Assembly: GCA_030744875.1 (NCBI GenBank)
Contig: JASLPR010000047.1
Span: forward strand, 914 to 64,913
DNA from: Chloroflexota bacterium
GTDB taxonomy: Bacteria > Chloroflexota > UBA11872 > VXNJ01
Direction of reading: 5' to 3'
DNA: 64,000 bases
Under the pieces are notes generated by a model. It was not told the origin of the DNA. It saw only the letters and a program-made list of their open reading frames with translations, and did not search any database. Shown here in pieces: positions 314-59,626 of this stretch. Within the stretch, counting starts at the first letter, position 1; each line of letters opens with the position of its first letter. A program made the position numbers and the translations under genes.

Positions 314-1018
314 CTAACCCGGCAGATCGAACAGCACGACTTCCACCATCGCCCTTCCCCGAACTGCAACCTCCGGCTCTCCCGTGTACTCCAGCGCGTT
401 CCCGGCCACCAGCGTCTTTCCCGCCGCCTCGATCTCGCGCGAAGCCACGAACAGGTAGGCCGACCGGCCGGCCGCCAGCGCGTGACTCACCCCCACTTCC
501 GGCTCAATCCGGCCAAGCAGGAAAGTCACGTCCTGGTGAATCGCCAGCCTCCCCTCATCCCCACCCGCCACCACCACCGGCAGTAACCGGTTCAACCGCT
601 GCTCCCGCGTCGTCTCCAGTTACTCGTAGCCTGGCGCAATGCCCTCCCGTTCCGGGATCAGCCAGATCTGCAGGAAGTGGCACGGCTCGGTTTGCGAGGC
701 GTTGATCTCCGAGTGAAACACCCCGGTCCCGGCCGACATCCGCTGCACCCTACCGGCCGGCAGGATCTCCGCGTTGCAGGCGCTGTCTTCGTGCCGCAGA
801 CCGCCCTCCAGCACGTAGGTGATGATTTCCATATTCGCGTGCGGATGGCGGCCCAACCCGGTCCCCGGCTCGATCCGATCGTCATTCAGCACCCGCAGTA
901 CGCTGAAGTTCATCCGCTCCGGATCTAGGTAGTGCGAGAACGAAAAGCTGTGCCGCGAGTCCAGCCAGTCGATGTTAGTGATGCCCCGCGTGTCCGCCGG
1001 GCGAAGTGTTGTTGGCAT
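314..1018 (-). pseudogene. pirin (YhhW-like bicupin) interrupted by an in-frame TAA
   Basis: N-terminal cupin (MPTTLRPADTRGITNIDWLDSRHSFSFSHY...HPHANMEIITYVLEG...QIWLIPEREGIAPGYE) and C-terminal cupin (ORF 314-595) are in the same frame. They are separated only by TAA at 620-622. Confidence 0.8.
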
Positions 1019-1220
1019 CCGAGCGCCCCGTCGCTTTCCCGTATTTCCACGCTGGCGATCCCCGACCTGCCTGATCTCCAAACATAGCCCGCCGCGCCCA
1101 AACCTCCGCCACCGTCCCGACCAATTGCTCCGTCGTGCACGGCTTCGGCAACAGTGCCGCCACTCCCGGTCGGTGCATCGCCCGGTCCATCCTCCGTCCC
1201 GATATGGGACACTGGGGCCC

Positions 1221-2162
1221 ATGAACGTCCTCGTCACCGGCGGCATGGGCAACCTCGGCTCCCGCCTCGCCGCCTGCCTCGCCGAACGCGGCGACCGCGT
1301 CACCGTCCTCGATCTCCGCCCCGAGCCTCTCGAAGATTCCCCCGCCTTCCGCCTTTGCCACCTCCTCACTGGCGACATCGCCGACCCGGCCGCCCTGCAG
1401 CCCATCTTCGCGGACGGTTCCTTCGACTCCGTCTTCCACCTCGCCGCCCTGCTTTCCGCCGACTCCGAGCGGGACGCAAAGCGCGCCTGGCGGGTCAACC
1501 TAGAAGGCGCCCGCCACATCCTCCAGGACGCGGCCGCGCACGGTGTCGCCCGGGTTATCTTCGCCAGCTCCACCGCCTCCTTCGGTCCCGGCCTCCCCCC
1601 GCCAGTCCAGCTCGATTCTCCCCAGTGGCCAGCCAGCCTCTACGGGGCCACCAAGGTCGCCGGCGAGCGCCTCGGCGTCTACTTCCACCATCGCTGTGGG
1701 CTCGATTTTCGCGGGCTCCGCATCCCGGCGGTGGTCGCCCCGCGCGGCGCCGGCGGTGGCGCCACCGCCTTCTGCTCCGAGGTCTTTGAGCAGGCGGTAC
1801 GGAACGGCCGCTATGAGTTCTATGTCGAGCCCGCCGCCGGCCGCCCGCTCATCTACATCGACGACGCCGTTCGTGCTTTGCTCGCCCTCCACGACGCCCC
1901 GGCGGAAGACCTCACCCGCCGCGTCTACCAGGTCGCCGGCATCCCCGCCACCGCCCGCGAAATGGCCGCCGCCGTCCTCGCCAGGCTTCCCGAAGTTGAC
2001 TTCAGCTACCGACCTGATCCCCTCCGGAACGCCATCGCGAGAAGCCTCCCCATCCACATCGACGACTCCCACGCCGTCCGCGACTGGAACTGGTCCCCGC
2101 GCTACGATCTCCCCGCCATGACCCTGCGCATGATCGAAGAGCTGCAAAAGGAGTCTCCGTGA
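1221..2162 (+). CDS. NAD-dependent epimerase/dehydratase (extended SDR)
   Basis: ATG at 1221 gives MNVLVTGGMGNLGSRLAACLAERGDRVTVLD (Rossmann GxxGxxG) and a YGATK catalytic motif. The upstream part of the 396-aa ORF is Pro/Arg-rich off-frame-like text. Confidence 0.8.
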   Translation: MNVLVTGGMGNLGSRLAACLAERGDRVTVLDLRPEPLEDSPAFRLCHLLTGDIADPAALQPIFADGSFDSVFHLAALLSADSERDAKRAWRVNLEGARHILQDAAAHGVARVIFASSTASFGPGLPPPVQLDSPQWPASLYGATKVAGERLGVYFHHRCGLDFRGLRIPAVVAPRGAGGGATAFCSEVFEQAVRNGRYEFYVEPAAGRPLIYIDDAVRALLALHDAPAEDLTRRVYQVAGIPATAREMAAAVLARLPEVDFSYRPDPLRNAIARSLPIHIDDSHAVRDWNWSPRYDLPAMTLRMIEELQKESP

Positions 2163-3001
2163 GCGCCGGCAAACCCTGCATCATCTGCGTCGCCATCACC
2201 GGCTCCGTTCCCACCAAAGCCAACAACCCCGCCCTCCCCATCACCATCGCTGAGCAGATCGAAAGCGCCCACGCTGCCTTTGAAGCCGGCGCCGCCATCG
2301 CCCACTGCCACGTCCGCAACGACGACGGCACCACCACCTCCGACCCGGCCCGCTTCGCCCTGCTGCTGGACGGTCTCCGCAAGCACTGCCCCGGCATGAT
2401 CATCCAGTTCTCCACCGGCGGGCGTTCCGGCGCCGGCAAAGCCCGCGGCGGCATGCTCTCCCTCTCCCCCGACATGGCCTCTCTCACAACTGGCTCCAAC
2501 AACTTCCCGACCACGGTCTACGAGAACCCGCCGGACCTGGTCGACTGGCTCGCCGCCGAGATGCGTACCCACAACGTCCGCCCCGAAATCGAAGCCTTCG
2601 ATCTCTCCCACATCCACCAGGCCGCCAAAATGTACGCCGACGGCCGTCTCCCGCAGCTACCGTATATCCAGTTCGTCATGGGCGTCACCAACGCCATGCC
2701 CGCCGACCGCGACGTCTTCGACTACTACCTCAAGACTGTCAACCGCCTCCTGCCCGGCGCCCTCTGGTGCGCCGCCGGCATCGGCCGCGCCCAGCGCATC
2801 GTCAACGAATGGTGCATCGAGATGGGCGGGCACACCCGCACCGGCATGGAAGACAACATCCGCCTTGACCGCGATACCTTTGCACCTTCCAACGCCGCGC
2901 TGGTCGAGATCACGGCCGAGCTCTGCCGCAAGCACGACCGCCCCGTCGCCACCTGGCAACAGGCCCGCAAGATTCTCAATCTGCCGCTCGCCGCCGGCTA
3001 G
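2159..3001 (+). CDS. beta-keto acid cleavage enzyme (BKACE / 3-keto-5-aminohexanoate cleavage, DUF849)
   Basis: CIICVAITGSVPTK...HCHVRNDDG...IIQFSTGGR...EIEAFD...GHTRTGMEDN is the family signature as I recall it. The GTG start overlaps the upstream stop (GTGA). Confidence 0.8.
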   Translation: MSAGKPCIICVAITGSVPTKANNPALPITIAEQIESAHAAFEAGAAIAHCHVRNDDGTTTSDPARFALLLDGLRKHCPGMIIQFSTGGRSGAGKARGGMLSLSPDMASLTTGSNNFPTTVYENPPDLVDWLAAEMRTHNVRPEIEAFDLSHIHQAAKMYADGRLPQLPYIQFVMGVTNAMPADRDVFDYYLKTVNRLLPGALWCAAGIGRAQRIVNEWCIEMGGHTRTGMEDNIRLDRDTFAPSNAALVEITAELCRKHDRPVATWQQARKILNLPLAAG

Positions 3002-3013
3002 CGGCGGAGGCCC

Positions 3014-6071: not shown

Positions 6072-7097
6072 TGGGCGTCTTCCCTGGAAGCGACTGGCAG
6101 ACCGCCGACCCCGCCGAACTAGGCTTTGATTCGGACAAGCTCGCCGCTGTCGGCCGGTGGCAGACCGGGATCGCCGGCGACAACCCCTACCGCCTCCTCG
6201 TCGTCCGCCACGGCCGAATCGCCGCCGAATGGAACCAGGGCGTCCCGGTCGATGAGCGTCAGTACCAGGCCTCCGCCTGGAAATCCACGCTCTCCTCCAC
6301 CCTCGCCATAACCATCGCCGACGGCCGCATCGGCTCTGCCGACGACCCGGTCGTCGACTATTACCCCGAGTTGATGGACGTCCCCGAAGGCTTCGGACCC
6401 AAGCCTGGCCGCCACGCCTTCCCCGAAAACGCCGCCATCACCTTCCGCCAGCTCATCGGCAACACCTCCGGCTACATGAAGCCCGGCGAAGCCCCCGGCC
6501 AGAAGTTCCACTACCAGACCTTCGGCATGAACATCCTCTCCCACGCCATCGCCGCCACCTACAACGCCTACAAGACCTCCGACCCCGAGGCCGGACCCGG
6601 CATCGGCAGCCTTTTCGACCGTTGGATTCGCGACCCCATTGGCGGATCCTGGACCTGGCGTTACCAGAACTTCGCCATGTCCGATGTCGCTCGCAAGGGC
6701 GTCTTCGGCTACGCCACGATCTTGGAGTGCACCGCCCGCGATATGGCCCGGCTCGGCTTTCTCTGGCTCAACGACGGCGTCTGGGACGGCCAACAAATCG
6801 TCCCCGCCGCCTGGCTCCGCGAAGCCACCGTCGTCTCCGACATGGTCAAAGCCGCCGAGCCCGAAGCAGGGTGGCGCTACGGCCTCGGCTTCTGGTGCAA
6901 CGACCAGGGCCGCACCTGGACCGAGCTGCCCCGCAATTGCTTCGCCGCCATCGGCGCCGGCTACCAGGTCATCATGGTCTGCCGCGATTCCGACCTGGTC
7001 GTCGTGCAGAGCCCCGGCGCCCCGACCCACCCCTACATTCTCGGCGATCGACTACGGCCAGGCCGCCGCCAGAGTCCTCGCCGCCCTCGACGACTAA
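6071..7097 (+). pseudogene. serine hydrolase (beta-lactamase/transpeptidase-like fold), apparent frameshift near the 3' end
   Basis: ATG at 6071 overlaps the upstream TGA. An SxxK-like ASAWKS motif is present. Protein-like text runs to ...VVVQSPGAPTHPYILG in one frame and continues as ...IDYGQAAARVLAALDD-TAA (7095-7097) in another. The original frame instead runs 380 nt further as Pro/Arg-rich text across the next gene. Confidence 0.55.
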
Positions 7098-22998: not shown

Positions 22999-23754
22999 GC
23001 GTCATGCTCCGCAAAGAACTCCTCGAACTCCTCAAGACCGGCCGCCTGCTCATCGTCACCGGCAGCATGGTTTCCTTTGGCATCCTCGGACCGGCGGCCG
23101 CCCGCTACCTGCCGCAGTTGATGGAAGGGTAGCTCCCCGAAGGCATGCAAATCATCATGCCCGATCCGGTCCCTGCCGACGGCGTCCAGCAATTCCTCGA
23201 AAACGTCGGTCAGCTTGGCTGGATCGCGCTGATCCTGGTCACGATGGGCGCGCTCGCCGGCGAGCGCGCCGCCGGCACCGTCGCCATCGTCCTCGCCACC
23301 CCCATCTCCCGCAACTTCTTCGTCCTCGCCAAACTAGTCTCCCGGCTGGCGCTGCTGCTGGTCAGCGTCCTCGCCGGCGCCGCCGTTTGCCTGCTCTACA
23401 CCGAGCTCCTGCTCGGCGCCTACCCGCTCCCCGAGTTCCTCGCCGCCACCGGCCTCTATCTTCTCTACGGCGCGTTGGTCGTCGCCTGGACCATCCTGAT
23501 GAGTTCGCTCGTCAAGTCCGGTATCGGCGCCGGCGGGCTCGCCCTGGTGCCGCTCTTTCTCATCCCCATCCTGAGCCTCCTCAGCGGCCGCCTCGGCGAC
23601 TTCCTCCCCTTCGGGCTCATCATCGCCGCCGGCGATATCGTGCGCCTGCGCGCGCCCCTCCGACGGACTCTGGATCGCCGCCGTAGTCACCCTCGCGCTG
23701 ATCGTCGTCTGCGCCCTCGCCGCCCATGCCCGCATCCGCACCATTTCCTTCTAG
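22995..23754 (+). pseudogene. ABC-2 family permease disrupted by an in-frame TAG and a frameshift
   Basis: (V)SVMLRKELLELLKTGRLLIV...YLPQLMEG-TAG(23130-23132)-LPEGMQIIMPDPVP... is continuous in one frame. The C-terminal TM helix GLWIAAVVTLALIVVCALAAHARIRTISF-TAG (23752-23754) is in the +1 frame after a CCCC run at 23655-23658. Confidence 0.7.
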
Positions 23755-30743: not shown

Positions 30744-30815
30744 CCCGGCCCCGTCACCTCGTTTCCATCCCACCCGCCCAATTCATCACCTGCGGTTGCC
30801 GTTGCCGTCTGGAGC

Positions 30816-33136: not shown

Positions 33137-33219
33137 GCGCCCCCGTATCCCCGGCCGCAACGATCTCGCCGGAAGTCTAGCCCACCCGCGGGGCCTCGCC
33201 ACGGCCCAATCCGGACTCC

Positions 33220-36160: not shown

Positions 36161-36290
36161 CCTTGCCAGTCTTTGGAGCCGCCGGATTATACGGTCTCTT
36201 CCCGCCGGCCCCTCGGCCGTGCACTATATTCAGACCCGGTACATGGGGAGGTATGACCGGGGTTACGCCCCGGCGCGAGGGAAACGCCGC

Positions 36291-38012
36291 ATGCGCGATC
36301 CACGCCGCTACCTGCTCATGCTCGTCGGCACGGCCGCGCTCGCGGTCCTCGGCACGGCGCTCGTCGCCATCGACCCGGCCGGTTGGGGCCGCGTCGTCGG
36401 CTCCGCAATCCTGTTTGGCGGCGCGGTCCTGCTGGCGCTCGAGTTGCTCACCGTCACCATCCAGCGCAACCGCCGCCACCGCCACGCCACCGACGTCGAC
36501 GACCTCTCGACAGTGCCTGGGGGCTCGACATGGTCCTCGAAAAGGGCGTCGTCGCCCTCGTCCAGCTGCTCGGCGCGCAGGCCGGCCTCGCCGTCATCCG
36601 CGACAACTCCGAAACCGAATTCGACTTCCAGTCCGCCTGGGGATTTGGCCGCGACATCTTCGAAGACCGTCCCGGCGACCTGATGGGCTATGACGTGCTC
36701 ACCACCATCATCGAGAGCCGTCATCCCGCCTACGTCGATCTTCGTGAAGATCGTTTCCAGTCCACCGCCCTCCGCCAGACTGGCATGCGCTGGGCCTGGA
36801 TCGCCCCCTTCCGCGCCGGCAGCTCGACGGCGCGCTCCCCGCCGCCTCCATGAGTGGCGCCCCACCCGCCACGTCTTCTCCGTCCTCGACTCCATTGGCG
36901 ACGTCGTCGGCCGCGCCGCTGAGAACGCCAACCTCATTACCCGCGAGCGCGCTCGCGCCCGCCTGCTCATGCACTTGGCCGACTTCGGCAACTTCGCCGT
37001 CTCGTCCTACGAAGAAGACCATCTCCGCAAGGCCGCCACCGTCGCCGCCGCGGCCATGTTTCCCCGCGGCTCCGGCTACATAACCGCCCTCGAACCCGGC
37101 TCCGGCGCGCTCAAGGTCGCCGACATCTTCGGCGCCAGCACCCGCCGGGACCGGCTCACCCCGCTCCTCGGACAGGTCGAATGCGACACCGCCGCCGCTT
37201 GCCGCGCCATCAGTCGCGGCGGCGCCTACGAAGGCGTCGGCGACGGCGGCCTTTTCGACTGCCCCCATCGCGGCACCCGCGAAGCCGCCGAGGCCTTCAT
37301 CTGCGCTCCGATCAACAGCAGCGACGGCCCGCTCGGCGCGATCCACGTCACCCGTTCCACCGGCGCCGACTTCGAAGCCGAGGAAAAGGAGATCGTCGAA
37401 GCCCTCGGCATCCAACTCGGCCTCGCCATCGCCAACGGCAACCTGCTGGCCATGACTCGAGACCAGGCCCTCCGCGACTCCATGACCGGGCTGCACAACT
37501 ACCGCTTCCTCATCGAGTACCTCAACAACCAGGCCGCCCTGATCCAGCGCACCAACGGCCGCATGTCGGTGCTGATGATCGACATCGACCACTTCCGCGA
37601 CTTCAACAACAAGTTCGGCCACGCCGCCGGCGACCACGTCCTCCGCGCCGTCGCCCGCATCTTCCGCAAGTGCATCCGCCGCAGCGACCTTGCCGCCCGC
37701 GACGGCGGCGAAGAGTTCACCGTGGTCCTCCCCGGTACCGACCTCGAGGGCGCCCGCCACGTCGCCGAGGGCATCCGCCGCGACGTCGAGCGTGACCAGC
37801 TTGAGTTTGACGGCCGCGACCTCGGCGAGATCAACGTTTCGGTCGGCGTCGTCGCGATGCCCGATCATGCCGCCGCCATCGAATCGCTGCTCTAGGCCGC
37901 CGACGAGGCCCTCTGCGCCGCCAAATCGGCCGGCCGCAACCGGGTCATCGCCGCCGATTCAGTCCCGCCGCCGCCCGCCGGCGGCGCCACGAGTCAGGAC
38001 CAGCCCGCCTAA
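36291..38012 (+). pseudogene. membrane-anchored GAF-GAF-GGDEF diguanylate cyclase, multiply disrupted
   Basis: The TM N-terminus (frame 0 from ATG 36291) switches to the GAF text LDMVLEKGVVALVQLLGAQAGLAVIRD (frame 2) at a GGGGG run (36519-36523). It returns to frame 0 between ~36815 and 36850. The GGDEF domain (RDGGEEFTVVLPG) ends ...IESLL-TAG(37893-37895)-AADEALCAAKSAGRNRVIA and finishes at TAA 38010-38012. Confidence 0.75.
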
Positions 38013-39314: not shown

Positions 39315-40043
39315 ATGAAGAACCACCGCATCGTCGTCAGCCGCCGCGGGGGCCCCGAAGTCCTCTAGGTCGTCGCGGCCGAGCTCCCCGAGCCTGGTCC
39401 CGGCGAGATCCGCGTCCGCACCCTGGCCGCCGGAGTATCCGCCTACGACGCCATGCTCCGCTCCCGCTGGTTCCCCGGCTTCCCGCGCACGCCGTTCGTC
39501 CCCGGCGCGGACATCGTCGGGGTGGTCGACAAACTCGGCGACGGCGTCACCACCTTCGCCGAAGGGCAGACCGTCACCGGCGGTCCCCTGCGCGACAACG
39601 GCGGCTATGTCGAATTCGTCTGCCTGCCCGCCGCCGCCGCGGTGCTGGTCCCCGATGGGATCGACCCGGTCGCCGCCGTCTGCTTGGTGGTCAACTACCT
39701 GACGGCCCACATCGCCCTGCACCGTTCGGCCCGCGTCGTGTCCGGCGAGCGCGTCCTCATCCACGGGGCCGCCGGCGGCGTCGGGACCGCCCTGCTCGAA
39801 CTCGGCCGGCGCGCCGGCCTGGAGATGTACGCTACCGCCTCCGACGGGCTTTCCCTGCCGGAGGCGGAGGCCATCCGCAACACGCTCGAAATCGCCCGCA
39901 TCCCCGACTTCCCCGAGCCGCTGGAAGTGATCCAGATCATCAACCGCGAAATCGAAATCCCGGTCATCGCCGGCGATCTCGGCGCGGCCGAGGCCTGCCA
40001 GAACGCCGCCGCCGCCATCGACGCGCTGCTCGCCCCCGTTTAG
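39315..40043 (+). pseudogene. chimeric remnant: N-terminal half of an MDR/quinone oxidoreductase (with in-frame TAG) fused in frame to the C-terminal tail of a solute-binding protein
   Basis: MKNHRIVVSRRGGPEVL-TAG(39366-39368)-VVAAELPEPGPGEIRVRTLAAGV...LIHGAAGGVGTALLELGRRAGLEMYATAS changes near 39845 to ...ARIPDFPEPLEVIQIINREIEIPVIAGDLGAAEACQNAAAAIDALL. That tail is SBP-like (compare the C-terminus of the SBP at 53582-54976). Confidence 0.6.
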
Positions 40044-41832: not shown

Positions 41833-42298
41833 CTACTGGGGGACGGTCTCCAGCATCGACTCAACCGCCTCGCGCTCGTTGGCGCCCAGCACCTTCTCGT
41901 AGTCCAGCAGGATCACCAGGCGGTCTCCCATCTTCGCCACGCCGGTGATGTACTCGGCCGAGATCGACACCGACAGCCGTTCCATCGGTTCGATCTGGTC
42001 GTCGGTGAACATCATCACCTCGCTCACGCTGTCTACGATCCCACCCACCAGCGAGCCGCCCACGCTCAGCACCATCACCCGGGTTTCGTTGGTCGACTCG
42101 CGCTCATCCAGCCCAAACCGCTTGTGCAGGGAAATTACCGGGATCACCGTGCCCCGGGGGTTGATCACGCCCTCCACGAATGCCGGCGAATGCGGCACCT
42201 CCGTAATCTCCGGCAGGCGCAGGATCTCCCGCACCCCCGAGATATCCACCGCATAGTTCTCTCCACTAAACCTGGAACATAACCACCTGTAGCTCCAT
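41833..42298 (-). pseudogene. cheW: CheW-like coupling protein with 5' frameshift; orphan (no other che genes in the window)
   Basis: ATG at 42298 gives MELQVVMF, then TAG after 3 more codons. The CheW text RFSGENYAVDISGVREILRLPEITEVPHSPAFVEGVINPRG continues in the +1 frame from ~42274. Confidence 0.6.
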
Positions 42299-42466: not shown

Positions 42467-43342
42467 TCACGGAGTGACCCACTCGATTTCGGTGAAGTCC
42501 TGCGCCCAGAACAGCTCCCCGGCGAACTCCGCCTTTACCTCGGCGATCGCCCGGGCTTCGTTGTCCAGTTCCTCAAACTGACCCGGCGCCTGGTGATTCG
42601 CCAGCAGCCGTTTCGCGCCGGCCGCGGCGGCGATCTTGCCGGCCCCGGTGTTGCCGGTCATGGTCTCGCCCTCCGGGACGGTGCGGATCACCGACTCCAG
42701 TTCCATCACGTTCTGCACCAGCAGGTCGGCGTCCCGGGCCAGTTCCACCACCGAATCCACCGGCGCCGTGTCGCCGCTGAACGCGATCACACCCTCGTCG
42801 GTCTCGAAGCGGAAGCCGAAGCAATTCAGGTACGGCTGGGCATGCTGGACCTCCCGGGCAAAGCACTCCCAATGCTTCCCGCTCGCAACCTTGCCTTCGC
42901 TGTACTCGTGAATGCCGACCACCGGCGCGGGCCGCTCGCCGACCCCGCCGCGGCTGTGAAAGGCGTGCACGCTCATCGGGTGATTCACCCGGGCCACCAC
43001 GTCGTACCAGAACACCCCGCGCTCCTCGCTCCACACCCGCTCGGCCACGTCCTGAAAGGGCGGCGGGCCGTACATCTGCAGGTCCGGCTCGGTCCCGACC
43101 GACTGATCGAAGTGCGTCATCAGAAGGCAGGGCAGGTCCGAGATGTGGTCCGAGTGCAGATGGGTGAAAAAGAGGTGATTGATCTCAGTCGGGCTCACCC
43201 CCATCTGGTACATCTTGTAGCTGCTTCCCGGGCCGCAATCGATCATCAGTCACTCCCCGCCGATCTTCAGCAAGAAGCAGGTCCCCCAGCGTTTCCCGGT
43301 CCGGGTCGGAGACCCCGCTCCAACAACCTTCAGCCGTGGCAT
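42467..43342 (-). pseudogene. MBL-fold metallo-hydrolase (RNase Z/arylsulfatase-like) with in-frame TGA
   Basis: MPRLKVVGAGSPTRTGKRWGTCFLLKIGGE-TGA(43250-43252)-LMIDCGPGS...FFTHLHSDHISDL is all one frame. A good SD (GGGAAAGGGA) precedes ATG 43342. Confidence 0.7.
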
Positions 43343-47536: not shown

Positions 47537-48211
47537 CAGCATATCCATTCCGACTCCACCGTCCGCAAGCTCCGCTGGCGGCCCGGCGACTCCGATTGGG
47601 CCGACTACTACCGGGGCGACAGCTATAGCGACGCTGCCTTTCAGCAGAAGCAGGAACTCGTTGCCGCCATGCTCGATACCGCCGGACCCGGCCCTGTCTG
47701 GGATCTGGGCGCCAACACCGGCGAGTTCAGCCGCCTGGCCTTGGATCACTCGACTCCGGTCGTTTCCCTGGACTTCGATCCCGGCGCCGTCGAGATCAGC
47801 TACCGGCAGATGACCCGCGACGGCGAAACCGGGCTCTTCCCGCTGGTCGCCGATCTCACCAACCCCACCCCGCCCACCGGCTGGGCCAACCGCGAGCGCC
47901 GTTCGCTACTGGAGCGCGGCCCGGCCCACACCGTCATCGCCCTGGCCCTCACCCACCACCTGGCCATTTCTCACAACGTCCCCTTCGGCCGCCTCGCCGA
48001 CTTCTTCGCCGGGCTCACCCGCCACCTGATCGTCGAATTCGTCCCCGCCGCCGACCCGATGGCCGCCCGTCTGCTGGCCATGCGCAACCACGACTTCCCC
48101 GACTACACCGTCGCAGCCTTCGAGTCCGCCCTGGACGGGCGCTTCACCATCTGCCGCCGCGAGCCGATCGCCGGTTCCGACCGGGTTCTCTACCTGATGG
48201 AGACCCGCTAG
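47537..48211 (+). pseudogene. class-I SAM-dependent methyltransferase, 5'-truncated remnant
   Basis: The frame is open from 47363 but has no start before 47669. The homology-like text DWADYYRGDSYSDAAFQQKQELVAAMLDTAGPGPVWDLGANTGEFSRLA... starts abruptly. The ~340 bp upstream (47193-47530) is non-coding and visibly less GC-rich. Confidence 0.5.
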
Positions 48212-49551: not shown

Positions 49552-51722
49552 ACGGCTACCCGCCCGCGCACCAGCGCCGCGCCCAGCGCTACCGCGCTCA
49601 ACACGCCGGTCAGCACCGCATAGCTCATCCCCACTGTCTCGCCGTGCATGTCGAAGCGGCCGTAGTGGGTGAAGAGCCGCTTGCGAAAGCCGTCAAAGGC
49701 GCCGCCCTGCGCCGCCGTGCAGTCATCACAGGGCAGCGCGATCGGATTCTTGAATATGTCCAGCGCCTGCACATAGATGTCCCCTCCGCGCAGCAGACTG
49801 CCGGAATTGTGCCCGTGATACCACTCCTCCGGCGTGCCCAGGACGTAGAGTTCGCCGCCGATCAGCGCCACCGCCAGCAGCGCCAGCAACGGCCCGCTCG
49901 CGCCGAACCGCCAGTTCCCGGCCAGGATCTCGCGGGCGCCCAGCGCGGCCATCGCGGTCACGAACGGCAACCCGTAGGCTAGGTGGCGAAACATCTCCGA
50001 CGGCTCCTCGCGGTGGAAGCCTTCCGGGGCCACCGCCATGGTCAGCGTCACCTGCGCCAGCGCCGCCAGGGGCAGCGCCACCAGCACTGACCTTTGCCGC
50101 GCCAGCTTCCATGTGCCCAGCGCGAACAGCGCCGCCAGCAACACCAGCAACACCGGCCCCCGCCAATCGTCCAGCAGCAACACCCCGGCGTAGTGGTCGT
50201 AGGCGCCGGTGCGCATGAACTCCAGGTTCTCGCCGATGTGCGCGAGCGCGAATCCCGACGAGCGCGGCGGCCACAGCGCGTCGGTGGTCAGCGCGATCGT
50301 TCCCGCGAACAGCGCCATCCCGGCCACGGCCAGCGCCCCCGGGATGGCCCAGCGTTGCGACCGGCCCAGCGCCAGCGCCGTCGCCGCGATCATCAGCGCA
50401 TACACCAGCCCCTCCGGCCGGGTCAGCGCCACCAACACCAGCACCGCCCCCAGCCCCACGGCGTCTTTTCGGCCGGTCCCCCGCGCCATCCGGGCCAGCA
50501 GGCCCATCGCCGCCGCCAGTTCCAGCACGAACACCGCGTCCGGCTCCGCAGCCCCTAATACTACGATCTGGAACGGCGGAAACAGCACCGTCAGCAGCGC
50601 CGCGGCCAGCGCGATGTCGTCGCGTCGCACGACCGCCCGCAGGGACAAGAACAGCATCCCCGGCAGGGCAACGTTGGCCAGCATGATTGGCAGTTGCGCG
50701 CTGTGATACCAGTGTCCGGAGACCCCGAACGACAGTGCCATCAGCAGCGGCAGCAGCGGTGCGTCCACCACCGTCTCGCCGGCCGTCGCCTGGGCGATTC
50801 CCATCCCCGCCGACCAGCTCGGATAGCCCTGCCCGGCCAGCACATCATCGGCGACGATCCAGTACCGCGCCAGGTCGTCCATCGTCACCGCCCGGTACGA
50901 GCCCGCCTGCAGGATGCCGATCCCCAGCAACGCCCCAGCCAGCAACCAGCCGCGGTGGCGCGCAAGTCTTGCCCACGCTCTCGCCAATGCCTCCGCCGAT
51001 TTACCCGGCCGCAACAGCCAGCCGCCGTACACCGCCAGACCCAGCAACAGCGCCGCCAGCGTCCGTGCGCCGCCGCTGGTGATTAGCAGATGGCGCAACT
51101 CGTTGTTGCCGTTGGACGCCAGCGCGAACGCCAGCGGTACGAGCAGCGGACCGAGGTATACACGCTGGCCCGTCGCCAACCGCATGCGCCCGAATAGCAA
51201 CACCAGCCCGGCCGTCGCTCCGACCGCCGCCAGCCAGATCGCCGCCGCCTCCGTCGCGCCAACCGTGATCTTCAGCAGCAGGTCGGCGAAACCGACCCCG
51301 GCGGCCGCCAGCAGCAGGTCCACCGCCGCGACGTGCCATCCGCCAACTCCAACCCGCCCGGCCGTTGCCTTCCCGTTCGCTTCGCTAACCGCGATCCCGA
51401 CCCCCAGCAGCAGTGGAATCAACGCCAACAGCCCGATCCGCAGCGACGCCGACTCCACCACCAGCGCATTGAACGAATCCGACCCGTACAGCGCGGCCAG
51501 CGGCACCGCCATTCCCAGCCCGCCGCTCATACTTCGCCACGCCGCGTTCACCGCCCCGCGCCAGGCCGCCAGCGCGATCGCGGCGAATAACCCGGCCGCC
51601 AGCGCGAACGCCAGCAGGTGCCCGACCGTCATTTCCAGCGGTTGCGCCCGTCCGGCCAGCACCGTCGCCGCCGCCGCGCCAACCGTCAGCGCCCCGGCCC
51701 CACCGGACGCCCGCCACCTCAT
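49548..51722 (-). CDS. large polytopic membrane protein, GT-C (ArnT/PMT_2)-like glycosyltransferase
   Basis: About 20 hydrophobic segments. The first-loop acidic motif TMDDLARYWIVADDVLAGQGYPSW resembles the GT-C DE/DD..RY motif. The C-terminal soluble-like part carries a conserved TRPEG. Confidence 0.5.
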   Translation of the reverse strand: MRWRASGGAGALTVGAAAATVLAGRAQPLEMTVGHLLAFALAAGLFAAIALAAWRGAVNAAWRSMSGGLGMAVPLAALYGSDSFNALVVESASLRIGLLALIPLLLGVGIAVSEANGKATAGRVGVGGWHVAAVDLLLAAAGVGFADLLLKITVGATEAAAIWLAAVGATAGLVLLFGRMRLATGQRVYLGPLLVPLAFALASNGNNELRHLLITSGGARTLAALLLGLAVYGGWLLRPGKSAEALARAWARLARHRGWLLAGALLGIGILQAGSYRAVTMDDLARYWIVADDVLAGQGYPSWSAGMGIAQATAGETVVDAPLLPLLMALSFGVSGHWYHSAQLPIMLANVALPGMLFLSLRAVVRRDDIALAAALLTVLFPPFQIVVLGAAEPDAVFVLELAAAMGLLARMARGTGRKDAVGLGAVLVLVALTRPEGLVYALMIAATALALGRSQRWAIPGALAVAGMALFAGTIALTTDALWPPRSSGFALAHIGENLEFMRTGAYDHYAGVLLLDDWRGPVLLVLLAALFALGTWKLARQRSVLVALPLAALAQVTLTMAVAPEGFHREEPSEMFRHLAYGLPFVTAMAALGAREILAGNWRFGASGPLLALLAVALIGGELYVLGTPEEWYHGHNSGSLLRGGDIYVQALDIFKNPIALPCDDCTAAQGGAFDGFRKRLFTHYGRFDMHGETVGMSYAVLTGVLSAVALGAALVRGRVAV

Positions 51723-52894
51723 ACGAGCGCCTCCGGCGACTCCCGCCGGCCTGCCAGCAGCGTTACCCCCAGCGCCACCGCGCTCAGCACCCCGGTGAGC
51801 GCCGCATAGCTGATCCCGACCGTGTCGCCGTGCATGTCAAACGGGCGGTAGTGATCGAAAAGCCGCTCGCGAAATCCCTCTAGGTCCGGGCAATCCGCAC
51901 ACGGCAGCGTGATCGGGTTCTGGAACATTTCCAGCGCCTCCACGTAGATATCGCCGCCGCGCAGCAGGCTCCCCGATTTGTTCCAGTGGTACATCTCCTC
52001 CGGCGTCGCCAGCACGTAGATCTCGCCGCCGATCAGCGCCACCACGATGACCGCCAGCACCGCGCCCGTCCAGTTGGCTCGCCAGTTCCAGCGCAATAGC
52101 TCGCGGGCCCCCAGCGCCGCCATCGCCGTCACCACCGGCAGCCCGTAGCCGAGGTGGCGAAACATCTCCGCCGGTTCCGCCGCGCGCAGCACCTCCGGAT
52201 CCACCGCCAGGGTCAGCCCTAGGTTCGCCAGCAGCGCCGCCGGCAGGGCTGCCACGAGCCACCGCCCGCGGGCCGCCGTCCAGCAGCCAACCGCGAACAG
52301 CCCACCCAGCAGCGCCAGCAGCGCCGGCGCGCGCAGGTCGTCCAGCAGGAGCACCCGCCCGTAATACCACCAGGTGTTGTGGCGCAGGTAGTCCAGGTTC
52401 TCGCCCAGGTTGGCCAGTGCAAAGCCCGAGCCGCGCGAGGGCCAGGCGGCATCGGTGGTCAGCGCCACCAACGCCGCGAAGGCCGCGCCGCCGGCCAGCG
52501 CGATCGCCCCCGGCAGCAGCCATTTGCGTGACCTGCCGAAAGCCGCCGTCGCCACGGCCAGCACTCCCGCGTACACCAGCCCCTCCGGCCGCGTCAGCGC
52601 CATCAGCAGCAGTACCACGCCCAGCGCCACCGGCCTGCCGCGTCCCGTCGCCGCCCGCGCCAGCAGCCCGATCGCAATCACCAGTTCCAGCACGAACACC
52701 GCGTCCGCCCCGGGCCGCAGCAGCCAGCCGGCATAGGCCGTCAGCGCCACCCTCGCAAACAGCCCCGCCGCCGCCCCGAAGGCCAGCAGGTGCCTGAGAG
52801 TCATCTCAGTCGGATTCGCCCGTCCGGCCAGCACCGTCGCCGCCGCCGCACCGATCACCAGCGCCCCCACCCCGCCGGACATCCGCCATTTCAT
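51719..52894 (-). CDS. internally deleted tandem paralogue of 49548-51722 (lacks the putative catalytic loop)
   Basis: aa 1-50 and the last ~330 aa align colinearly with the 724-aa neighbour. Examples: MKWRMSGGVGALVIGAAAATVLAGRA vs MRWRASGGAGALTVGAAAATVLAGRA, and ...ALTRPEGLVYA...SGSLLRGGDIYV.... The ORF is intact, and the stop overlaps the next start (ATGA). Confidence 0.55.
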   Translation of the reverse strand: MKWRMSGGVGALVIGAAAATVLAGRANPTEMTLRHLLAFGAAAGLFARVALTAYAGWLLRPGADAVFVLELVIAIGLLARAATGRGRPVALGVVLLLMALTRPEGLVYAGVLAVATAAFGRSRKWLLPGAIALAGGAAFAALVALTTDAAWPSRGSGFALANLGENLDYLRHNTWWYYGRVLLLDDLRAPALLALLGGLFAVGCWTAARGRWLVAALPAALLANLGLTLAVDPEVLRAAEPAEMFRHLGYGLPVVTAMAALGARELLRWNWRANWTGAVLAVIVVALIGGEIYVLATPEEMYHWNKSGSLLRGGDIYVEALEMFQNPITLPCADCPDLEGFRERLFDHYRPFDMHGDTVGISYAALTGVLSAVALGVTLLAGRRESPEALV

Positions 52895-53545: not shown

Positions 53546-53581
53546 GATTCCGACGGGCCTTGCGGCCTCTGGGAAGTCCGG

Positions 53582-54976
53582 CTACATCTTGGCCAGCTCG
53601 TCGTCCAGGGCTCCCTGCGCCGTCTCCTCGGCGTCGGCCAGGGCCTCTTCGACGGTCTTGGCATCGAACACTGCGGCCTCGATGGCCTTCGCCACCGAGT
53701 TCCACAGCTGCGCCTGGGCCGGACCTGGGTACTGCACGTCCGACACTTTCTGTGAGTCCACATACGGCGTGATCAAGGGATGGTCGCTCTCATGCTGTTG
53801 CCAGCGCGGGTGGTCGCGGTACGATAGCACCGCAGGGAGATTGCCAAAGCCCATCACCCAATCCAGGTGATTCTCCACATCCAGCAACCATCTGAGGTAC
53901 GGCCAGCCCTCTTCCGGGTTGTTCGATTCCTTGAAGATGTGCGCGCCGCCGAATCCCACCGGAACCCGGAAATTGTCCTCTGTGGTCGCCGGACCGAACG
54001 GCATCCGCGCCGATCCCGACTGGTGGTTCGTCGCTTCCGCGCGCTTTGTCCACACCGGGTACAGCGTCATCGATCCCAGCGTTCCAGTCTCGAAATCGTT
54101 GCCCATAGCCAGATTATCGATCGCCTTTATTGGATAGGCATTCACATCACGCAAGTCTAGGTAGAATTGAAGTGCTGCCTGCACCTCCGGTGTCGTGAGC
54201 GTGAACTTCTTCCCGTCCGCGCTGATAACATCGCCCCCATAGCCCCATATGTACGAGATGAATATGTGGTTACCCGACCAATTTTTCGGTGCAGTGCCCA
54301 CATAGTGGCCGTAGATGTCGTCTCCCAGATTGCTGATCGTTTCTGCCGCTACCAGTAGGTCCTCATTCGTCGCTGGGAACGCGTCTGGATCTAGGCCTGC
54401 CTCCGCGTAGAGATCCTTGTTATAGAGGACGCACAGACAGCCCGAGTTTGCCGGATAGGCCATCATGCGGCCCTCGTGCGTAACCGCCTTCTGCACCCCA
54501 GGGACCCAATCGAGCTTGGCGATATCCGGGTCGAAGTCCTCAATCGAAATCGTATCCCCGCTGCGAGCCAGTTGGGCATTGGCCGGTGCCGACCCGATGT
54601 GCAATACCTCTGGCGGACTGCCCGCCGCCAGCGCGGTGGAAAGCTTTGCCATGACCTCCGTCTGCGGCACGATCGTTGTTGTCACCAAGATATCGTTCTG
54701 CGACTCGGAGAATGCGTCACCCATGGCGGTGGCGTGCTCGGCCTGCGCTCCCGACAGGTTGAACCACTGGATGATCTCAACCCGTTCCTTCGACGGTGCC
54801 GGTTCAGGCGCAGTCGCGGCAGGCTTTTCTGCCTTCGGAGCTTCTGCCTTCGGAGCCTCTGCCGCCGGGGCCGCCGCCTCCTCCTCTCCACAGCCGCTCA
54901 GCGCCGCCAGACCGACCGCCGTGGCCGAGCCGTACACGCCAAACTTCAACAACGCTCTTCTGTTTAGTGCAGTCAT
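53582..54976 (-). CDS. ABC sugar transporter substrate-binding lipoprotein (Tat signal)
   Basis: MTALNRRALLKFGVYGSATAVGLAALSGCG, with a family-1 SBP body. Confidence 0.85.
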   Translation of the reverse strand: MTALNRRALLKFGVYGSATAVGLAALSGCGEEEAAAPAAEAPKAEAPKAEKPAATAPEPAPSKERVEIIQWFNLSGAQAEHATAMGDAFSESQNDILVTTTIVPQTEVMAKLSTALAAGSPPEVLHIGSAPANAQLARSGDTISIEDFDPDIAKLDWVPGVQKAVTHEGRMMAYPANSGCLCVLYNKDLYAEAGLDPDAFPATNEDLLVAAETISNLGDDIYGHYVGTAPKNWSGNHIFISYIWGYGGDVISADGKKFTLTTPEVQAALQFYLDLRDVNAYPIKAIDNLAMGNDFETGTLGSMTLYPVWTKRAEATNHQSGSARMPFGPATTEDNFRVPVGFGGAHIFKESNNPEEGWPYLRWLLDVENHLDWVMGFGNLPAVLSYRDHPRWQQHESDHPLITPYVDSQKVSDVQYPGPAQAQLWNSVAKAIEAAVFDAKTVEEALADAEETAQGALDDELAKM

Positions 54977-55149
54977 TTTCGCTTGCCTCCACAGACCTTT
55001 GGCGATCCGCCTTCCGCTCCATCAGTTTGCGCAATCCGAAGGCGGATTCCGATGTTTCAATACCTTAACCACCACCGGTCCTGGTCTCTATTCGAGCGCA
55101 GTCCCGGATTTCGCTCGATCGTTCCTCCTTTCCCTCTGCGCCTGGACAG

Positions 55150-56007
55150 CTAACCCTTGAGTCCCGTCATCGTTATCCCCTGCGTGAAGTACCGCTGCAA
55201 CGCCAGGTACATGATCAACACCGGTAAGGCCGACAGCGCCGTCGCCGCCAGCATCGGGCCCCACCGGATCACCTCGCCCTTCATCGTCGCCAGCCCGATC
55301 TGCACCGTGTAGACCTCCGGCCGCGTCACCGCCACCAGCGGCCACAGGAAGTCGTTCCACGCTGCCGTGAACGCAAAAATCGAAAGCGCCGTCAGCGCCG
55401 GCCCGCTCAGCGGGATGAATATTTGCACCAGGATCCGTATCCTATTGCACCCGTCGATACGCGCCGCGTCTTCCAGTTCCGCCGGCAGGTTCATGAAGAA
55501 CTGCCTGATCAGGAACACGCCGAAGAATTGTACCAGCCGGATCGACGCAATTCCCATATACGTGTCTACCAGGTTCAACCGCGTGATGATCACGAAGCTC
55601 GGGATGATCGTCACCTGGATCGGAATCATCATTGCGCCCAGGTACATCAGGAACAACGTGTCCCGCCCCCAGAACCGCAGCCGCGCGAAGGCATATCCCG
55701 CCAGCACCGCCGTGAACACTACGCTGAACGTCTCGATGACCGCCACGATGATGCTGGTCTTCAGCCATGTCCCCAGCGGCCAGTCCGTCCACGCGTCCAC
55801 GTAGTTCTGCCACTCGAACGAACTCGGCAACAGTGACATATCCTTGCTGAAGATGTCCTGCTCCGGTTTCAACGACGACGACACCGTCCAGATGTACGGA
55901 ATCAGGAAGACCAGCGCCGCGGTCACCAGCAGAAAGTAGAGCGCCACCTTCTTTGTCAGTTGTTCCCGGCGGAACGAGCCCCCGGTCATCCGGCTGCTAG
56001 TCATCAA
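55150..56007 (-). CDS. carbohydrate ABC transporter permease (MalG-like)
   Basis: EAA-loop-like ELEDAARIDGCNRIRILVQIFIPLSGPAL. Confidence 0.9.
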   Translation of the reverse strand: MMTSSRMTGGSFRREQLTKKVALYFLLVTAALVFLIPYIWTVSSSLKPEQDIFSKDMSLLPSSFEWQNYVDAWTDWPLGTWLKTSIIVAVIETFSVVFTAVLAGYAFARLRFWGRDTLFLMYLGAMMIPIQVTIIPSFVIITRLNLVDTYMGIASIRLVQFFGVFLIRQFFMNLPAELEDAARIDGCNRIRILVQIFIPLSGPALTALSIFAFTAAWNDFLWPLVAVTRPEVYTVQIGLATMKGEVIRWGPMLAATALSALPVLIMYLALQRYFTQGITMTGLKG

Positions 56008-56990
56008 TAATCAACCAGCCTGCCCGCGAACTTGTACTGGATCATCGATATCGCGAACACGATCACGAACAAGACGTAGGCGATCGCGCTCGCGTACCCC
56101 ATCCGGAACAACTCGAACGCCTGTTGGTACAGGTAGAGCACCACCACATTCGTCGAGTCTACTGGCCCCCCTGCGGTCATCACGTAGATCATACCGAACG
56201 AATACTGTGTCGCCCGGATCACACCCATGATCAGCACGAAAAACGTTGTAGGCCATAACAGTGGCCAGGTCACGTGCCGAAACTGCCCCCAGGACCCCGC
56301 CCCGTCGATCGCCGCCGCCTCCCGCAGACTGACCGGAATTCCCTGCAATCCCGCCAAGTAGACCACCACGAAATACCCGATCTCTCGCCATGAGAATGTC
56401 AAGATCATTGTCGGCAACGCCCACTTGAGGCTGGATGCCCACCCTGGTCCCGTGATGCCGAACGATTTCAAGAGCTGGTTTATCGGGCCGAATTGAGGGT
56501 CAAACAACCACAGGAATACCAGCCCGGTCGCGATCAATGAGGTCACCACAGGCGAATAGAAAACCCCCCGGAACACTGCCGTTCCCCGGAGGCCCTGATT
56601 CAGAGCCATCGCTAGTGCCAACGCTCCCACCACCGTGATTGCCACCACCCCGAACGTCAGCACCAGGGTGTTTACCACCGTCTTCACGAACGTCTTGTCG
56701 CCGAGAAGCTCGACGTAGTTTTCGATCCCCACGAACTCCGGATCGCCCCGCACCGGGTGCCAGTCCAGGAAGCTCATGTACAGCGAGAAACCCAGCGGGA
56801 AGACGATGAAGATTAGGAAGAAGGCCAGCGTGGGGAGGACGAACAGGGTGCCGTAGCGCGCTTGCTCCTGCCGGAAGTACGCTCGCAGCCCCCTGAGAAT
56901 CCCGACCGGCGCCGCCCGGGGCGCCGGTAGTTCCCGCTCCGCGATCGTTTTCCGCAATCGTGTCCTCCTGTGACGATCGACAACTTTCAT
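56004..56990 (-). CDS. carbohydrate ABC transporter permease (MalF-like)
   Basis: LREAAAIDGAGSWGQFRHVTWPLLWPT EAA motif. The stop overlaps the downstream permease start. Confidence 0.9.
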   Translation of the reverse strand: MKVVDRHRRTRLRKTIAERELPAPRAAPVGILRGLRAYFRQEQARYGTLFVLPTLAFFLIFIVFPLGFSLYMSFLDWHPVRGDPEFVGIENYVELLGDKTFVKTVVNTLVLTFGVVAITVVGALALAMALNQGLRGTAVFRGVFYSPVVTSLIATGLVFLWLFDPQFGPINQLLKSFGITGPGWASSLKWALPTMILTFSWREIGYFVVVYLAGLQGIPVSLREAAAIDGAGSWGQFRHVTWPLLWPTTFFVLIMGVIRATQYSFGMIYVMTAGGPVDSTNVVVLYLYQQAFELFRMGYASAIAYVLFVIVFAISMIQYKFAGRLVDY

Positions 56991-58519: not shown

Positions 58520-58549
58520 CCGCGCCGGGACCGGGTCACAAGAAGAAAG

Positions 58550-58623
58550 CTGCCGGTGACAGTTAGGGGTACCCGGCTGGCCGCACCCGGACCGGGGCAG
58601 AACAAGAAAGCTGCCGGTGGCAG
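58550..58623 (-). terminator. two tandem hairpin + T-tract elements after the dienelactone hydrolase gene
   Basis: On the minus strand: CTGCCaccGGCAG-CTTTCTTGTT (58611-58623 stem) and CTGTCaccGGCAG-CTTTCTTCTT (58550-62 stem). The shared unit is aagaaagctgccggtgNcag. Confidence 0.45.
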
Positions 58624-59626
58624 CTAGAGGTGCTCGGCGAACCACGCCAGCGTGTCGGCCCAGGCCAGCCCCGCCCCCTCCTCGTTAAAGCGCGGCCCGG
58701 TGTCGTTGTGAAAGGCGTGGTCGGCGCCCTCGTAGATATTCATCCGGTGCGTCACCCCGGCCTCGATCAGCGCCTCTTCAAGGGCCAACTTCCCGGCGTT
58801 CACGCGGCTATCGAATTGGGCATAGACGCCCAGCATCGCGGCTTTGATATTCGGCACCGCGTCCAGTTCCGGAACGATCCCGTAGAACGGCGCCCCCGCC
58901 TTCAATTCCGGCTCCACCGTCGCGAAGCGCTAGGTGATCCCGCCGCCGAAGCAATAGCCGGTCATCCCGATCCGGTCCGCTGCCACGTCGTCGCGGGCCT
59001 GCAAGTAATCGAACGCCGTCGCGAAATCGCCCAGGTGCCGCTCGGCCCCCGCGCCGGTCAACATCCCGGGCACCGCGTCGCGGTCGAACGACGCCGTACC
59101 GCCCTCGCGCCACAGCAGGTCCAGCGCCAGCGTCCACGTAGCCTTCGCCGGCGAAGCGCCGGGTCACATCGCGGATGTGGTCCACCAGGCCGCGGTTCTC
59201 GTGGCAAACGAGCACCGCCGGAAACGGGCCGTCGCCGGCCGGTTTAGCGAAGTACCCGGCGACCTCTTCGTTGCTGTCGGGCAGGACCAATTCTTCGGCT
59301 TCGATGCCGGTTTCGGTCATCGCCGGCTCCGCGGGCTCCGCCCGACTCGCTTCACTTGCAGCCGTGGCAATGGGCGTCGCGGCAGCTGAAGTCTCCACAT
59401 CCGCTGTCGGTGCCACCGTCGCAGCTTCCGTCGCAGGCATCGGCGTATTCGCTTCCGGCAACTCGTCCGGCGCGCAGCCCACCGCTGTCATTGCCACCGC
59501 CGCCGCCATCGAACCTTGGATGAATGCCACTCGCCGGGTAAAGGTCCCCCGGTTGATCAGCCCGTCGCGGTAGTCGTCGTAGAACTCTTCGATCAGGTAA
59601 CGCTCGAACGCCCCCAGCTGCACCAT
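58624..59626 (-). pseudogene. dienelactone hydrolase family protein with a frameshift and an in-frame TAG
   Basis: MVQLGAFERY...VLVCHENRGLVDHIRDVTRRFAGEGYV is in one frame. LALDLLWREGG...GMTGYCFGGGIT-TAG(58930-58932)-RFATVEPELKAGAPFYG...GADHAFHND...AEHL is in another. The switch is at ~59133 (tacgtGGacg). Confidence 0.75.

What the first reader, a model, noticed from the sequence alone, without database searches (positions are those of the whole stretch)
314..59626. Unusually high density of inactivated genes in an otherwise ordinary chromosomal region
Ten loci look non-functional:
- pirin (TAA)
- serine hydrolase (frameshift)
- ABC-2 permease (TAG + frameshift)
- GAF-GGDEF cyclase (at least 2 frameshifts + TAG)
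- MDR oxidoreductase (TAG + fusion to an SBP tail)
- cheW (frameshift)
- MBL hydrolase (TGA)
- SAM methyltransferase (5' truncation)
- dienelactone hydrolase (frameshift + TAG)
- an internally deleted GT-C paralogue
Several genes carry more than one lesion. Every translation, transcription and cofactor gene (leuS, proS, rplU, rpmA, sigma factor, nadA, moaA, cysE, thrC, the desulfurase) is intact. That asymmetry is what relaxed selection on accessory and sensory functions produces, for example in early genome reduction after a lifestyle shift. Random consensus errors would not be expected to spare core genes.
Basis: partly seen in the sequence, partly recalled or inferred. Interest (0 to 1): 0.7.

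Follow-up and report, generated by a model that had tools for sequence, protein, structure and literature searches.

The report
Real pseudogene cluster in marine Chloroflexota
About one gene in five in this stretch of an uncultured open-ocean Chloroflexota genome is genuinely broken, the breaks recur in independent assemblies, and sister species have broken some of the same genes differently, so this is ordinary but unusually dense gene decay, not sequencing error.

Summary
All ten loci carry real lesions. I add an eleventh at the left edge and two more candidates just outside the window.

The window belongs to a marine Chloroflexota population. Contigs 99.3-100% identical occur in JGI, NCBI, ENA, TARA Oceans and Logan assemblies. 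Every lesion covered by another contig is identical there. The one exception is the 1-nt insertion in the dienelactone hydrolase (59135), which one TARA contig lacks.

Related species keep intact, syntenic copies of the GGDEF cyclase, the methyltransferase, the second GT-C paralogue and the dienelactone hydrolase. Other sister species have destroyed the GGDEF gene, the ABC-2 transporter and the serine hydrolase by different, larger deletions.

Lesions cluster: 13 small lesions fall in 8 genes (P≈0.007 if random by length). Recoding is excluded. TAG is the main genuine terminator, the stops replace different residues (Gln, Lys), and relatives read the frameshift sites in one frame.

Corrections:
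- GGDEF has three frameshifts, one of them a 10-nt deletion.
- The "SBP tail" of the oxidoreductase is not supported.
- The sparing of core genes is not significant on its own.

Gene decay under relaxed selection is supported. A "lifestyle shift" is not shown.

The parts
1..295 (+). 3' end of a class-III aminotransferase pseudogene. The rest lies left of the window.
   Evidence: On contig L008 the gene has lost about the first 88 profile positions and needs a frame change (~L008 15340). The Aminotran_3 profile matches only 89-353 of 403 across the repaired junction.
314..1018 (-). Pirin (YhhW-type) pseudogene with an in-frame TAA at 620-622.
   Evidence: Pirin N and Pirin_C_2 domains lie on either side of the stop. 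The stop aligns with Gln of YhhW. Identical in L008, L009 and L010.
6074..7097 (+). Beta-lactamase-family serine hydrolase with a +1 insertion (A at 7037) that puts the last ~20 codons out of frame. The shifted ORF runs on to 7477, over the CBS gene.
   Evidence: Identical in L008-L010. Sister L109 has lost codons ~30-291 of the same gene.
23004..23745 (+). ABC-2 permease pseudogene with TAG at 23130-32 and a frameshift at about 23650-23662.
   Evidence: Both lesions are identical in L001, L002 and L005. The frameshift is also identical in L003, L004 and L006. Sister L111 has deleted window 22116-23431.
36219..38012 (+). TM-GAF-GAF-GGDEF diguanylate cyclase pseudogene. Lesions: 10-nt deletion at 36505/6; 1-nt deletions at 36819/20 and ~36863; TAG at 37893-95 (Lys in relatives). 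It also has RYGGEEF>RDGGEEF and ALY>ALC at invariant columns.
   Evidence: Identical in L013. The orthologue is intact (577 aa) and syntenic in L025/L026.
39315..40043 (+). MDR/quinone-oxidoreductase remnant. TAG at 39366-68. Homology ends near 39845, followed by 66 unrelated codons.
   Evidence: Only ADH_N matches in Pfam. PDB quinone oxidoreductases align to residues 4-177 only. The tail is unassigned. Identical in L013.
41833..42298 (-). cheW pseudogene with an extra T in the run at 42268-42270, 10 codons after the start.
   Evidence: The repaired protein matches the CheW profile 1-135 from residue 4. DNA context. Identical in L013.
42467..43342 (-). Metallo-beta-lactamase-fold hydrolase pseudogene with an in-frame TGA at 43250-52.
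   Evidence: Lactamase_B and Lactamase_B_2 matches span the stop. The position is not Cys and is variable in PDB homologues. Identical in L013.
47555..48211 (+). 5'-truncated SAM-dependent methyltransferase. About 250 N-terminal codons are missing.
   Evidence: Orthologues of 462-475 aa (80-87% identity) match only from their residue ~245-255. A 469-aa copy is intact in the sister contig.
51719..52894 (-). GT-C paralogue with an in-frame internal deletion of ~340 codons. It lies in tandem with the full-length copy at 49548-51722.
   Evidence: It matches residues 1-56 and 398-721 of the L107 728-aa protein. The sister species has two full-length copies of 727 and 721 aa. A 51-nt indel polymorphism lies at 52346-52381.
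58624..59626 (-). Dienelactone hydrolase pseudogene with TAG at 58930-32 and a +1 insertion at 59135.
   Evidence: The DLH profile runs 2-216 across both lesions; PDB alignment. The TAG is identical in L014, L015, L016, L115 and L116. The insertion is absent from TARA contig L015 only. A 335-aa copy is intact in the sister contig.

Best explanation
The window comes from an uncultured marine, apparently planktonic, Chloroflexota population. Its accessory, sensory and transport genes are being lost by ordinary mutational decay. The lesions are point nonsense mutations, 1-nt and 10-nt indels, and deletions of 0.7-1 kb.

Shown: the lesions are real, and most are fixed across the sampled population. 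The inactivations are lineage-specific, because intact orthologues sit at the same positions in related species. Some of the same genes have been destroyed independently in sister species. This points to loss of selective value of those functions across this group of related species, with slow removal of the dead DNA.

Inferred: relaxed selection is the cause, possibly helped by drift in a near-clonal population (contigs 99.3-100% identical across samples). Also inferred: the inactivations are recent, because the pseudogenes keep a coding-type GC3 of 0.81-0.91.
For: - Same lesions in independent assemblies from JGI, NCBI MAGs, ENA, TARA and Logan.
- DLH insertion at 59135 is absent from TARA contig L015 while the TAG is shared.
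- Profiles and PDB homologues align straight across the lesions.
- Intact syntenic orthologues exist: GGDEF 577 aa in L025/L026; MTase 469 aa, second GT-C 721 aa and DLH 335 aa in the sister contig.
- Independent destruction in sisters: GGDEF 1.2-kb deletion and ABC-2 1.3-kb deletion in L111-113; hydrolase in L109; MFS_3 in L107/108.
- Lesions cluster in few genes.
- Two further pseudogene candidates lie in the 7 kb left of the window.
- Substitutions at invariant GGDEF positions.
Against: - Only about 71 kb of one genome region was examined, so the genome-wide fraction is unknown.
- The GGDEF, MDR, cheW and MBL lesions are covered by only one other contig (L013), plus a 99%-identical annotated fragment in an NCBI MAG (P0003).
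- Several JGI and NCBI contigs may derive from related samples, so they are not fully independent.
- pN/pS among strains is uninformative (28 non-synonymous, 30 synonymous).
- No expression data. The hydrolase loses only its last ~20 codons, and the short GT-C copy is still an open in-frame ORF, so these two could retain some function.
Confidence: 0.85

Rival explanations
1. The stops and indels are sequencing or consensus errors of one metagenome assembly.
For: Some indels sit in short runs: the T run in cheW and C/G runs in the ABC-2 and GGDEF genes. The source is a MAG.
Against: The lesions are identical in contigs built by different assemblers from different samples. Lesions cluster, with 4 in one gene. 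Kilobase deletions and truncations cannot be base-calling errors. Several indels are not in homopolymers: A at 7037 and the 10-nt deletion at 36505/6.
Confidence: 0.03
2. The genes are functional through recoding: stop-codon read-through or reassignment, selenocysteine or pyrrolysine, or programmed frameshifting.
For: There are six in-frame stops in 57 loci. TAG usage in this genome is unusual.
Against: TAG ends 36 of the 55 gene ends scored and TGA ends 13, so both act as terminators. No conserved core gene has an in-frame stop. The stops replace different residues: Gln for TAA, Lys for TAG in GGDEF, and a variable non-Cys position for TGA. Relatives read the frameshift sites in a single frame. 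Genes with stops also carry indels and deletions.
Confidence: 0.02
3. The decay is local. The window is a patchwork of horizontally acquired or rearranged accessory DNA ('failed transfers'), and the rest of the genome has a normal pseudogene load.
For: BKACE (2159-3001) is 71-77% identical to Alphaproteobacteria. The sugar ABC cassette at 53582-56957 has G+C 0.60 and is absent from the sister contig. Gene order between cysE and the MTase differs from relatives, and truncated genes (MDR, MTase) lie near these breaks in gene order.
Against: The pseudogenes are interspersed with leuS, proS, rplU/rpmA, nadA and moaA. They have the genome's G+C and GC3. Several have syntenic orthologues in sister species, so they are ancestral rather than imports. 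Two more lie in the next 7 kb.
Confidence: 0.25
4. This is early reductive evolution after a shift to a host-associated or otherwise restricted lifestyle.
For: High pseudogene density. Loss of sensory and transport genes (cheW, GGDEF, ABC-2). A near-clonal population.
Against: The population is recovered from open-ocean metagenomes; one cluster member is named for a TARA 0.22-1.6 µm mesopelagic fraction. There are no IS elements in 64 kb. G+C is 67% and about 91% is coding. A relative has a 3.7-Mb contig, so the genome is not small.
Confidence: 0.1

Closest known systems
Pseudogene-rich genomes in reductive evolution, such as Mycobacterium leprae, Sodalis glossinidius and Shigella (from general knowledge)
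   Same: A high fraction of disrupted genes. Several lesions per gene. Housekeeping genes spared. Accessory and sensory genes hit.
   Different: No host association is evident. There is no IS proliferation, no AT drift, and coding density is still about 91%. Only about 71 kb was sampled, not a genome.
Ordinary bacterial pseudogene turnover, roughly 1-5% of genes with rapid deletion, and 'failed horizontal transfers' (Liu et al. 2004; Lerat & Ochman 2005; Kuo & Ochman 2010, cited from memory)
   Same: The same lesion types: nonsense mutations, small indels and truncations. The pseudogenes are lineage-specific, and sister lineages have already deleted them.
   Different: Density here is about 19% of loci. 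Many of the pseudogenes are ancestral syntenic genes rather than recent imports.
Gene loss during adaptation of pelagic bacteria, i.e. genome streamlining as in SAR11 and Prochlorococcus (from general knowledge)
   Same: Marine planktonic setting. Loss of chemotaxis, c-di-GMP signalling and transport functions. Parallel loss across relatives.
   Different: Streamlined genomes are small, AT-rich and almost free of pseudogenes. This lineage has high G+C, is not small, and retains the dead genes.

Membership tests
Unitary bacterial pseudogene | Homology to a functional family continues across the lesion | tested here: met
   Pfam and PDB alignments span the stops or frameshifts for pirin, ABC-2 (TAG only; its frameshift rests on GC3 and the tail conserved in L111), GGDEF, cheW, MBL and DLH. 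The hydrolase tail was recovered in the other frame.
Unitary bacterial pseudogene | An intact orthologue exists in a related genome, ideally at the same position | tested here: met
   Met for GGDEF (L025/26) and for MTase, the second GT-C copy and DLH (sister contig). Not obtained for pirin, MDR, cheW or MBL. For the hydrolase and ABC-2 the only relatives recovered are themselves deleted.
Unitary bacterial pseudogene | The lesion is reproducible in independent sequence data | tested here: met
   GGDEF, MDR, cheW and MBL rest on one extra contig (L013) plus the NCBI fragment P0003.
Unitary bacterial pseudogene | No functional product is made | not testable with these tools
   This needs transcript or proteome data. 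It is doubtful for the hydrolase (C-terminal shift only) and the short GT-C copy (in-frame deletion).
Early reductive genome evolution (host-restricted type) | Proliferation of IS elements or transposases | tested here: not met
   No transposase family appears among the Pfam annotations of all called genes across the window.
Early reductive genome evolution (host-restricted type) | Host association or a restricted niche | tested here: not met
   The contigs come from open-ocean metagenomes. One cluster member is named TARA_039_MES_0.22-1.6. Relatives come from Mediterranean water-column data.
Early reductive genome evolution (host-restricted type) | High pseudogene fraction genome-wide | tested here: inconclusive
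   11 of 57 loci in the window plus 2 of about 8 in the adjacent 7 kb.
Stop-codon reassignment or read-through | The codon no longer terminates genes and appears in conserved genes at a consistent residue | tested here: not met
   TAG ends 36 and TGA ends 13 of the 55 gene ends scored. No in-frame stops occur in the core genes. The stops replace Gln, Lys or variable residues.
Programmed ribosomal frameshift | The shift site is conserved in relatives | tested here: not met
   Relatives read the GGDEF and hydrolase sites in one frame. One strain lacks the DLH insertion.

The most novel reading that the evidence does not exclude
A free-living, ocean-wide and near-clonal mesopelagic Chloroflexota group carries 10-20% pseudogenes across its whole genome. 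Sister species are independently losing the same signalling and transport genes. This would be a pseudogene-rich stage of genome reduction in a planktonic bacterium with no host restriction and no IS expansion. It might be linked to other oddities of this group of related species: very strong GC skew and TAG as the dominant stop codon.
Probability: 0.3. Interest if true: 0.6.

Novelty: new member of a known kind. Interest (0 to 1): 0.4.

Why it matters
Pseudogene-dense genomes are classically tied to host restriction or recent bottlenecks. Planktonic marine bacteria are usually described as having few pseudogenes. If the density seen here holds genome-wide, this lineage would let gene loss in the open ocean be watched in progress. 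The same genes are intact, point-mutated or deleted in neighbouring species, so the lesions can be ordered in time.

Practically, automated annotation of these MAGs reports the fragments as separate small genes, such as Pirin plus Pirin_C, a 308-333 aa 'GGDEF protein', and a 180-aa methyltransferase. That inflates gene counts and misstates function.

Tried and rejected
- A 2129-aa chimera of all the repaired pseudogenes was given to the search for homologous proteins. It returned only long PKS-like proteins and cost one of three searches.
- The single genome-contig scan used BKACE as query. Neither the source genome nor Chloroflexota relatives appeared.
- The first exact look-up with a wrong start codon found nothing.
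- Three attempts to identify the C-terminal tail of the MDR remnant as a solute-binding-protein fragment all failed: Pfam at E≤1, BLAST against the window's two SBPs, and PDB sequences. The claim is dropped.
- Pfam could not extend the Beta-lactamase profile into the repaired hydrolase tail. The sister contig settled the question instead.
- Literature searches found nothing on pseudogenes in marine Chloroflexota or SAR202, or on TAG-rich stop usage in Chloroflexi.
- Selenocysteine at the MBL TGA was considered and rejected. Homologues have variable, non-Cys residues there.
- Net frame restoration in GGDEF (-10 -1 -1 = -12) was considered as compensation and rejected. The segment in between hits a stop in the original frame.
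Full report
**What the window is.** The window has 66-72% G+C over most of its length, falling to 0.60-0.63 at 54-58 kb. GC skew is strongly negative throughout. Exact-protein look-ups found the same DNA at 99.3-100% identity in many assemblies:
- JGI metagenomes 3300035205, 3300035206 and 3300035250;
- NCBI MAGs GCA_030746705.1, GCA_030743355.1 and GCA_035092285.1;
- ENA ERZ27286381;
- several TARA Oceans assemblies;
- a Logan assembly.

NCBI names the proteins 'Chloroflexota bacterium'. One cluster member is named TARA_039_MES_0.22-1.6, which is a mesopelagic, free-living size fraction. Relatives come from Mediterranean water-column data.

**Checking the ten loci.** I rebuilt each gene from three-frame translations and tested it.

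Pfam profiles run straight across the lesions in pirin, ABC-2 (its TAG), GGDEF, cheW, MBL and DLH.
- The pirin TAA replaces the Gln of YhhW 'PRYEQ'.
- The cheW shift is an extra T at 42268-70. After repair the CheW profile matches from position 1.
- The MDR gene has TAG at 39366-68. It aligns to solved quinone oxidoreductases only up to residue ~177 of a protein that should be ~330 aa. Its remaining 66 residues match nothing, so 'SBP tail' is unsupported.
- The methyltransferase family is 457-475 aa long. Orthologues at 80-87% identity match the window only from their residue ~250 onward, at 47555-48205.
- The short GT-C copy matches residues 1-56 and 398-721 of a 728-aa orthologue.

For the serine hydrolase, homologues of 343-355 aa align only to ORF residues 2-318. 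A sister contig, L109, reads the C-terminus in one frame. This shows that the window has one extra base, A at 7037. Codon-position G+C confirms this frame change and the one in the ABC-2 permease.

GGDEF was aligned to an intact 577-aa orthologue. It has a 10-nt deletion at 36505/6, single-base deletions at 36819/20 and ~36863, and TAG where relatives have Lys. It also has substitutions at invariant positions: RYGGEEF to RDGGEEF, and ALY to ALC.

**Are they errors?** No.
- Every lesion covered by another contig is identical there.
- The single exception is informative. TARA contig L015 lacks the extra base at 59135 that shifts the DLH frame, but it shares the TAG at 58930-32. The stop is therefore probably older and the insertion a later, still polymorphic mutation.
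- Thirteen small lesions fall in only eight genes. If lesions were placed at random by gene length, the probability of eight or fewer genes being hit is 0.007. The probability of four or more in one gene is 0.01.
- Deletions of 0.7-1 kb cannot be base-calling errors.

A caveat applies. The GGDEF, MDR, cheW and MBL lesions rest on one additional contig (L013) plus an annotated 99%-identical NCBI fragment.

**Are they recoding?** No.
- TAG ends 36 of the 55 gene ends scored, TGA ends 13 and TAA ends 6.
- No core gene has an in-frame stop.
- The stops replace unrelated residues.
- Relatives read the shift sites in frame.

**Comparison with relatives.**
- A species with proS at 86% amino-acid identity keeps an intact GGDEF between proS and cysE.
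- A 375-kb sister contig, for which only gene calls were available, has an intact 469-aa methyltransferase, two full-length GT-C paralogues (727 and 721 aa) and an intact 335-aa DLH in the same order. It lacks the sugar ABC cassette found at 53582-56957, where G+C is 0.60.
- Another sister species, L111-113, is ~86-87% identical at the nucleotide level. It has a 1.2-kb deletion inside GGDEF and a 1.3-kb deletion that removes the ABC ATPase and half of the permease. It still has AAG at the window's TAG site, so these are independent events.
- L109 has lost codons ~30-291 of the hydrolase.
- L107 and L108 have an internally deleted MFS_3 gene.
- L024 has its own frameshifted GGDEF, though long-read error cannot be excluded there.

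**Density.** That aminotransferase has an N-terminal deletion and a frameshift. A frameshifted URO-D-like gene also lies in the 7 kb left of the window. Against a 5% background, which I assume from the literature from memory, P is about 1e-4. The genome-wide value remains unknown.

**Interpretation.** The best-supported reading is ongoing mutational decay of dispensable accessory, sensory and transport genes in this group of related species. The dead genes are retained long enough to collect further hits. Relaxed selection is inferred from the parallel losses.

A role for drift is plausible because the population is near-clonal across samples. It was not tested, and the strain-level SNP counts (28 non-synonymous, 30 synonymous) are uninformative.

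One MAG carries a nadA nonsense variant.

Nothing supports a host-linked lifestyle shift. There are no IS elements, G+C is high and about 91% of the window is coding.

**Verdict.** This is a new example of a known phenomenon. It would be of moderate interest, and of more interest if the density proves to be genome-wide.

Noticed in passing
whole window; also L111, L107, L024: TAG is the dominant stop codon: 36 TAG, 13 TGA and 6 TAA in the window. Almost all the TGA stops lie in 4-nt NTGA start/stop overlaps. Relatives show the same tendency (L111 has 15 TAG and 3 TGA). This is unusual for a 67% G+C genome. No literature was found.
   Followed up: partly
window 1-64000: GC skew is very strong and uniform (mostly -0.13 to -0.29), with no matching gene-strand bias; genes are split roughly evenly between the strands. 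Sister L111 has a skew of -0.20.
   Followed up: no
window 19091 (nadA): In MAG GCA_030746705.1 (L002) a C>A change turns a nadA GAA codon into TAA, and nadA is not called there. It is either a strain-level knockout of a core cofactor gene or an error in that MAG.
   Followed up: partly
window 7195-7650 (CBS-pair protein), site 7331: The window lacks 13 codons present in sister L109. They encode '...EVHTTAVVDADGLMVGII...', the core strand of the first CBS motif. This may be another degenerative lesion.
   Followed up: partly
L008 14468-16000 and 20210-21327 (left of the window): The class-III aminotransferase has lost ~88 N-terminal profile positions and is frameshifted. A URO-D-like gene is split into 215 and 182 aa by a frameshift.
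   Followed up: yes
window 2159-3001 (BKACE): The best genome matches are marine Alphaproteobacteria (Roseibium, Rhodobacteraceae) at 71-77% amino-acid identity. This suggests horizontal transfer.
   Followed up: no
window 53582-56957: A sugar ABC cassette (SBP plus two permeases, no ATPase) has G+C of about 0.60 and is absent from the syntenic sister contig. It is probably a recent insertion.
   Followed up: partly
window 23914-24633 (rplU): Ribosomal protein L21 carries a long Ala/Lys/Pro-rich repeat tail. It is 239 aa here and 206 aa in sister L111. All seven other population contigs covering the site differ from the window at a SNP (24380) in the repeat.
   Followed up: no
window 44950-44972 and 52346-52381: There are in-frame indel polymorphisms within the population. 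One of about 48 nt lies in a 102-aa ORF. One of 51 nt lies in the short GT-C paralogue.
   Followed up: partly
window 30744-31209: A 466-nt gap between convergent genes is kept at the same length in sister L111, where the blastn alignment runs straight through it. It has no Rfam or tRNA hit.
   Followed up: no
L024 343-1424 and 10001-11452; L107 11386-11850: Relatives carry their own broken genes. L024 splits the orthologue of window 32057-33202 and has a frameshifted GGDEF; it is a long-read contig, so errors are possible. L107 and L108 have an internally deleted MFS_3.
   Followed up: partly
window 20394-21827: An SBP_bac_1 solute-binding protein stands alone, with no cognate BPD_transp permeases. 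It lies next to the decaying ABC-2 system and may be the last intact piece of a lost transporter.
   Followed up: no
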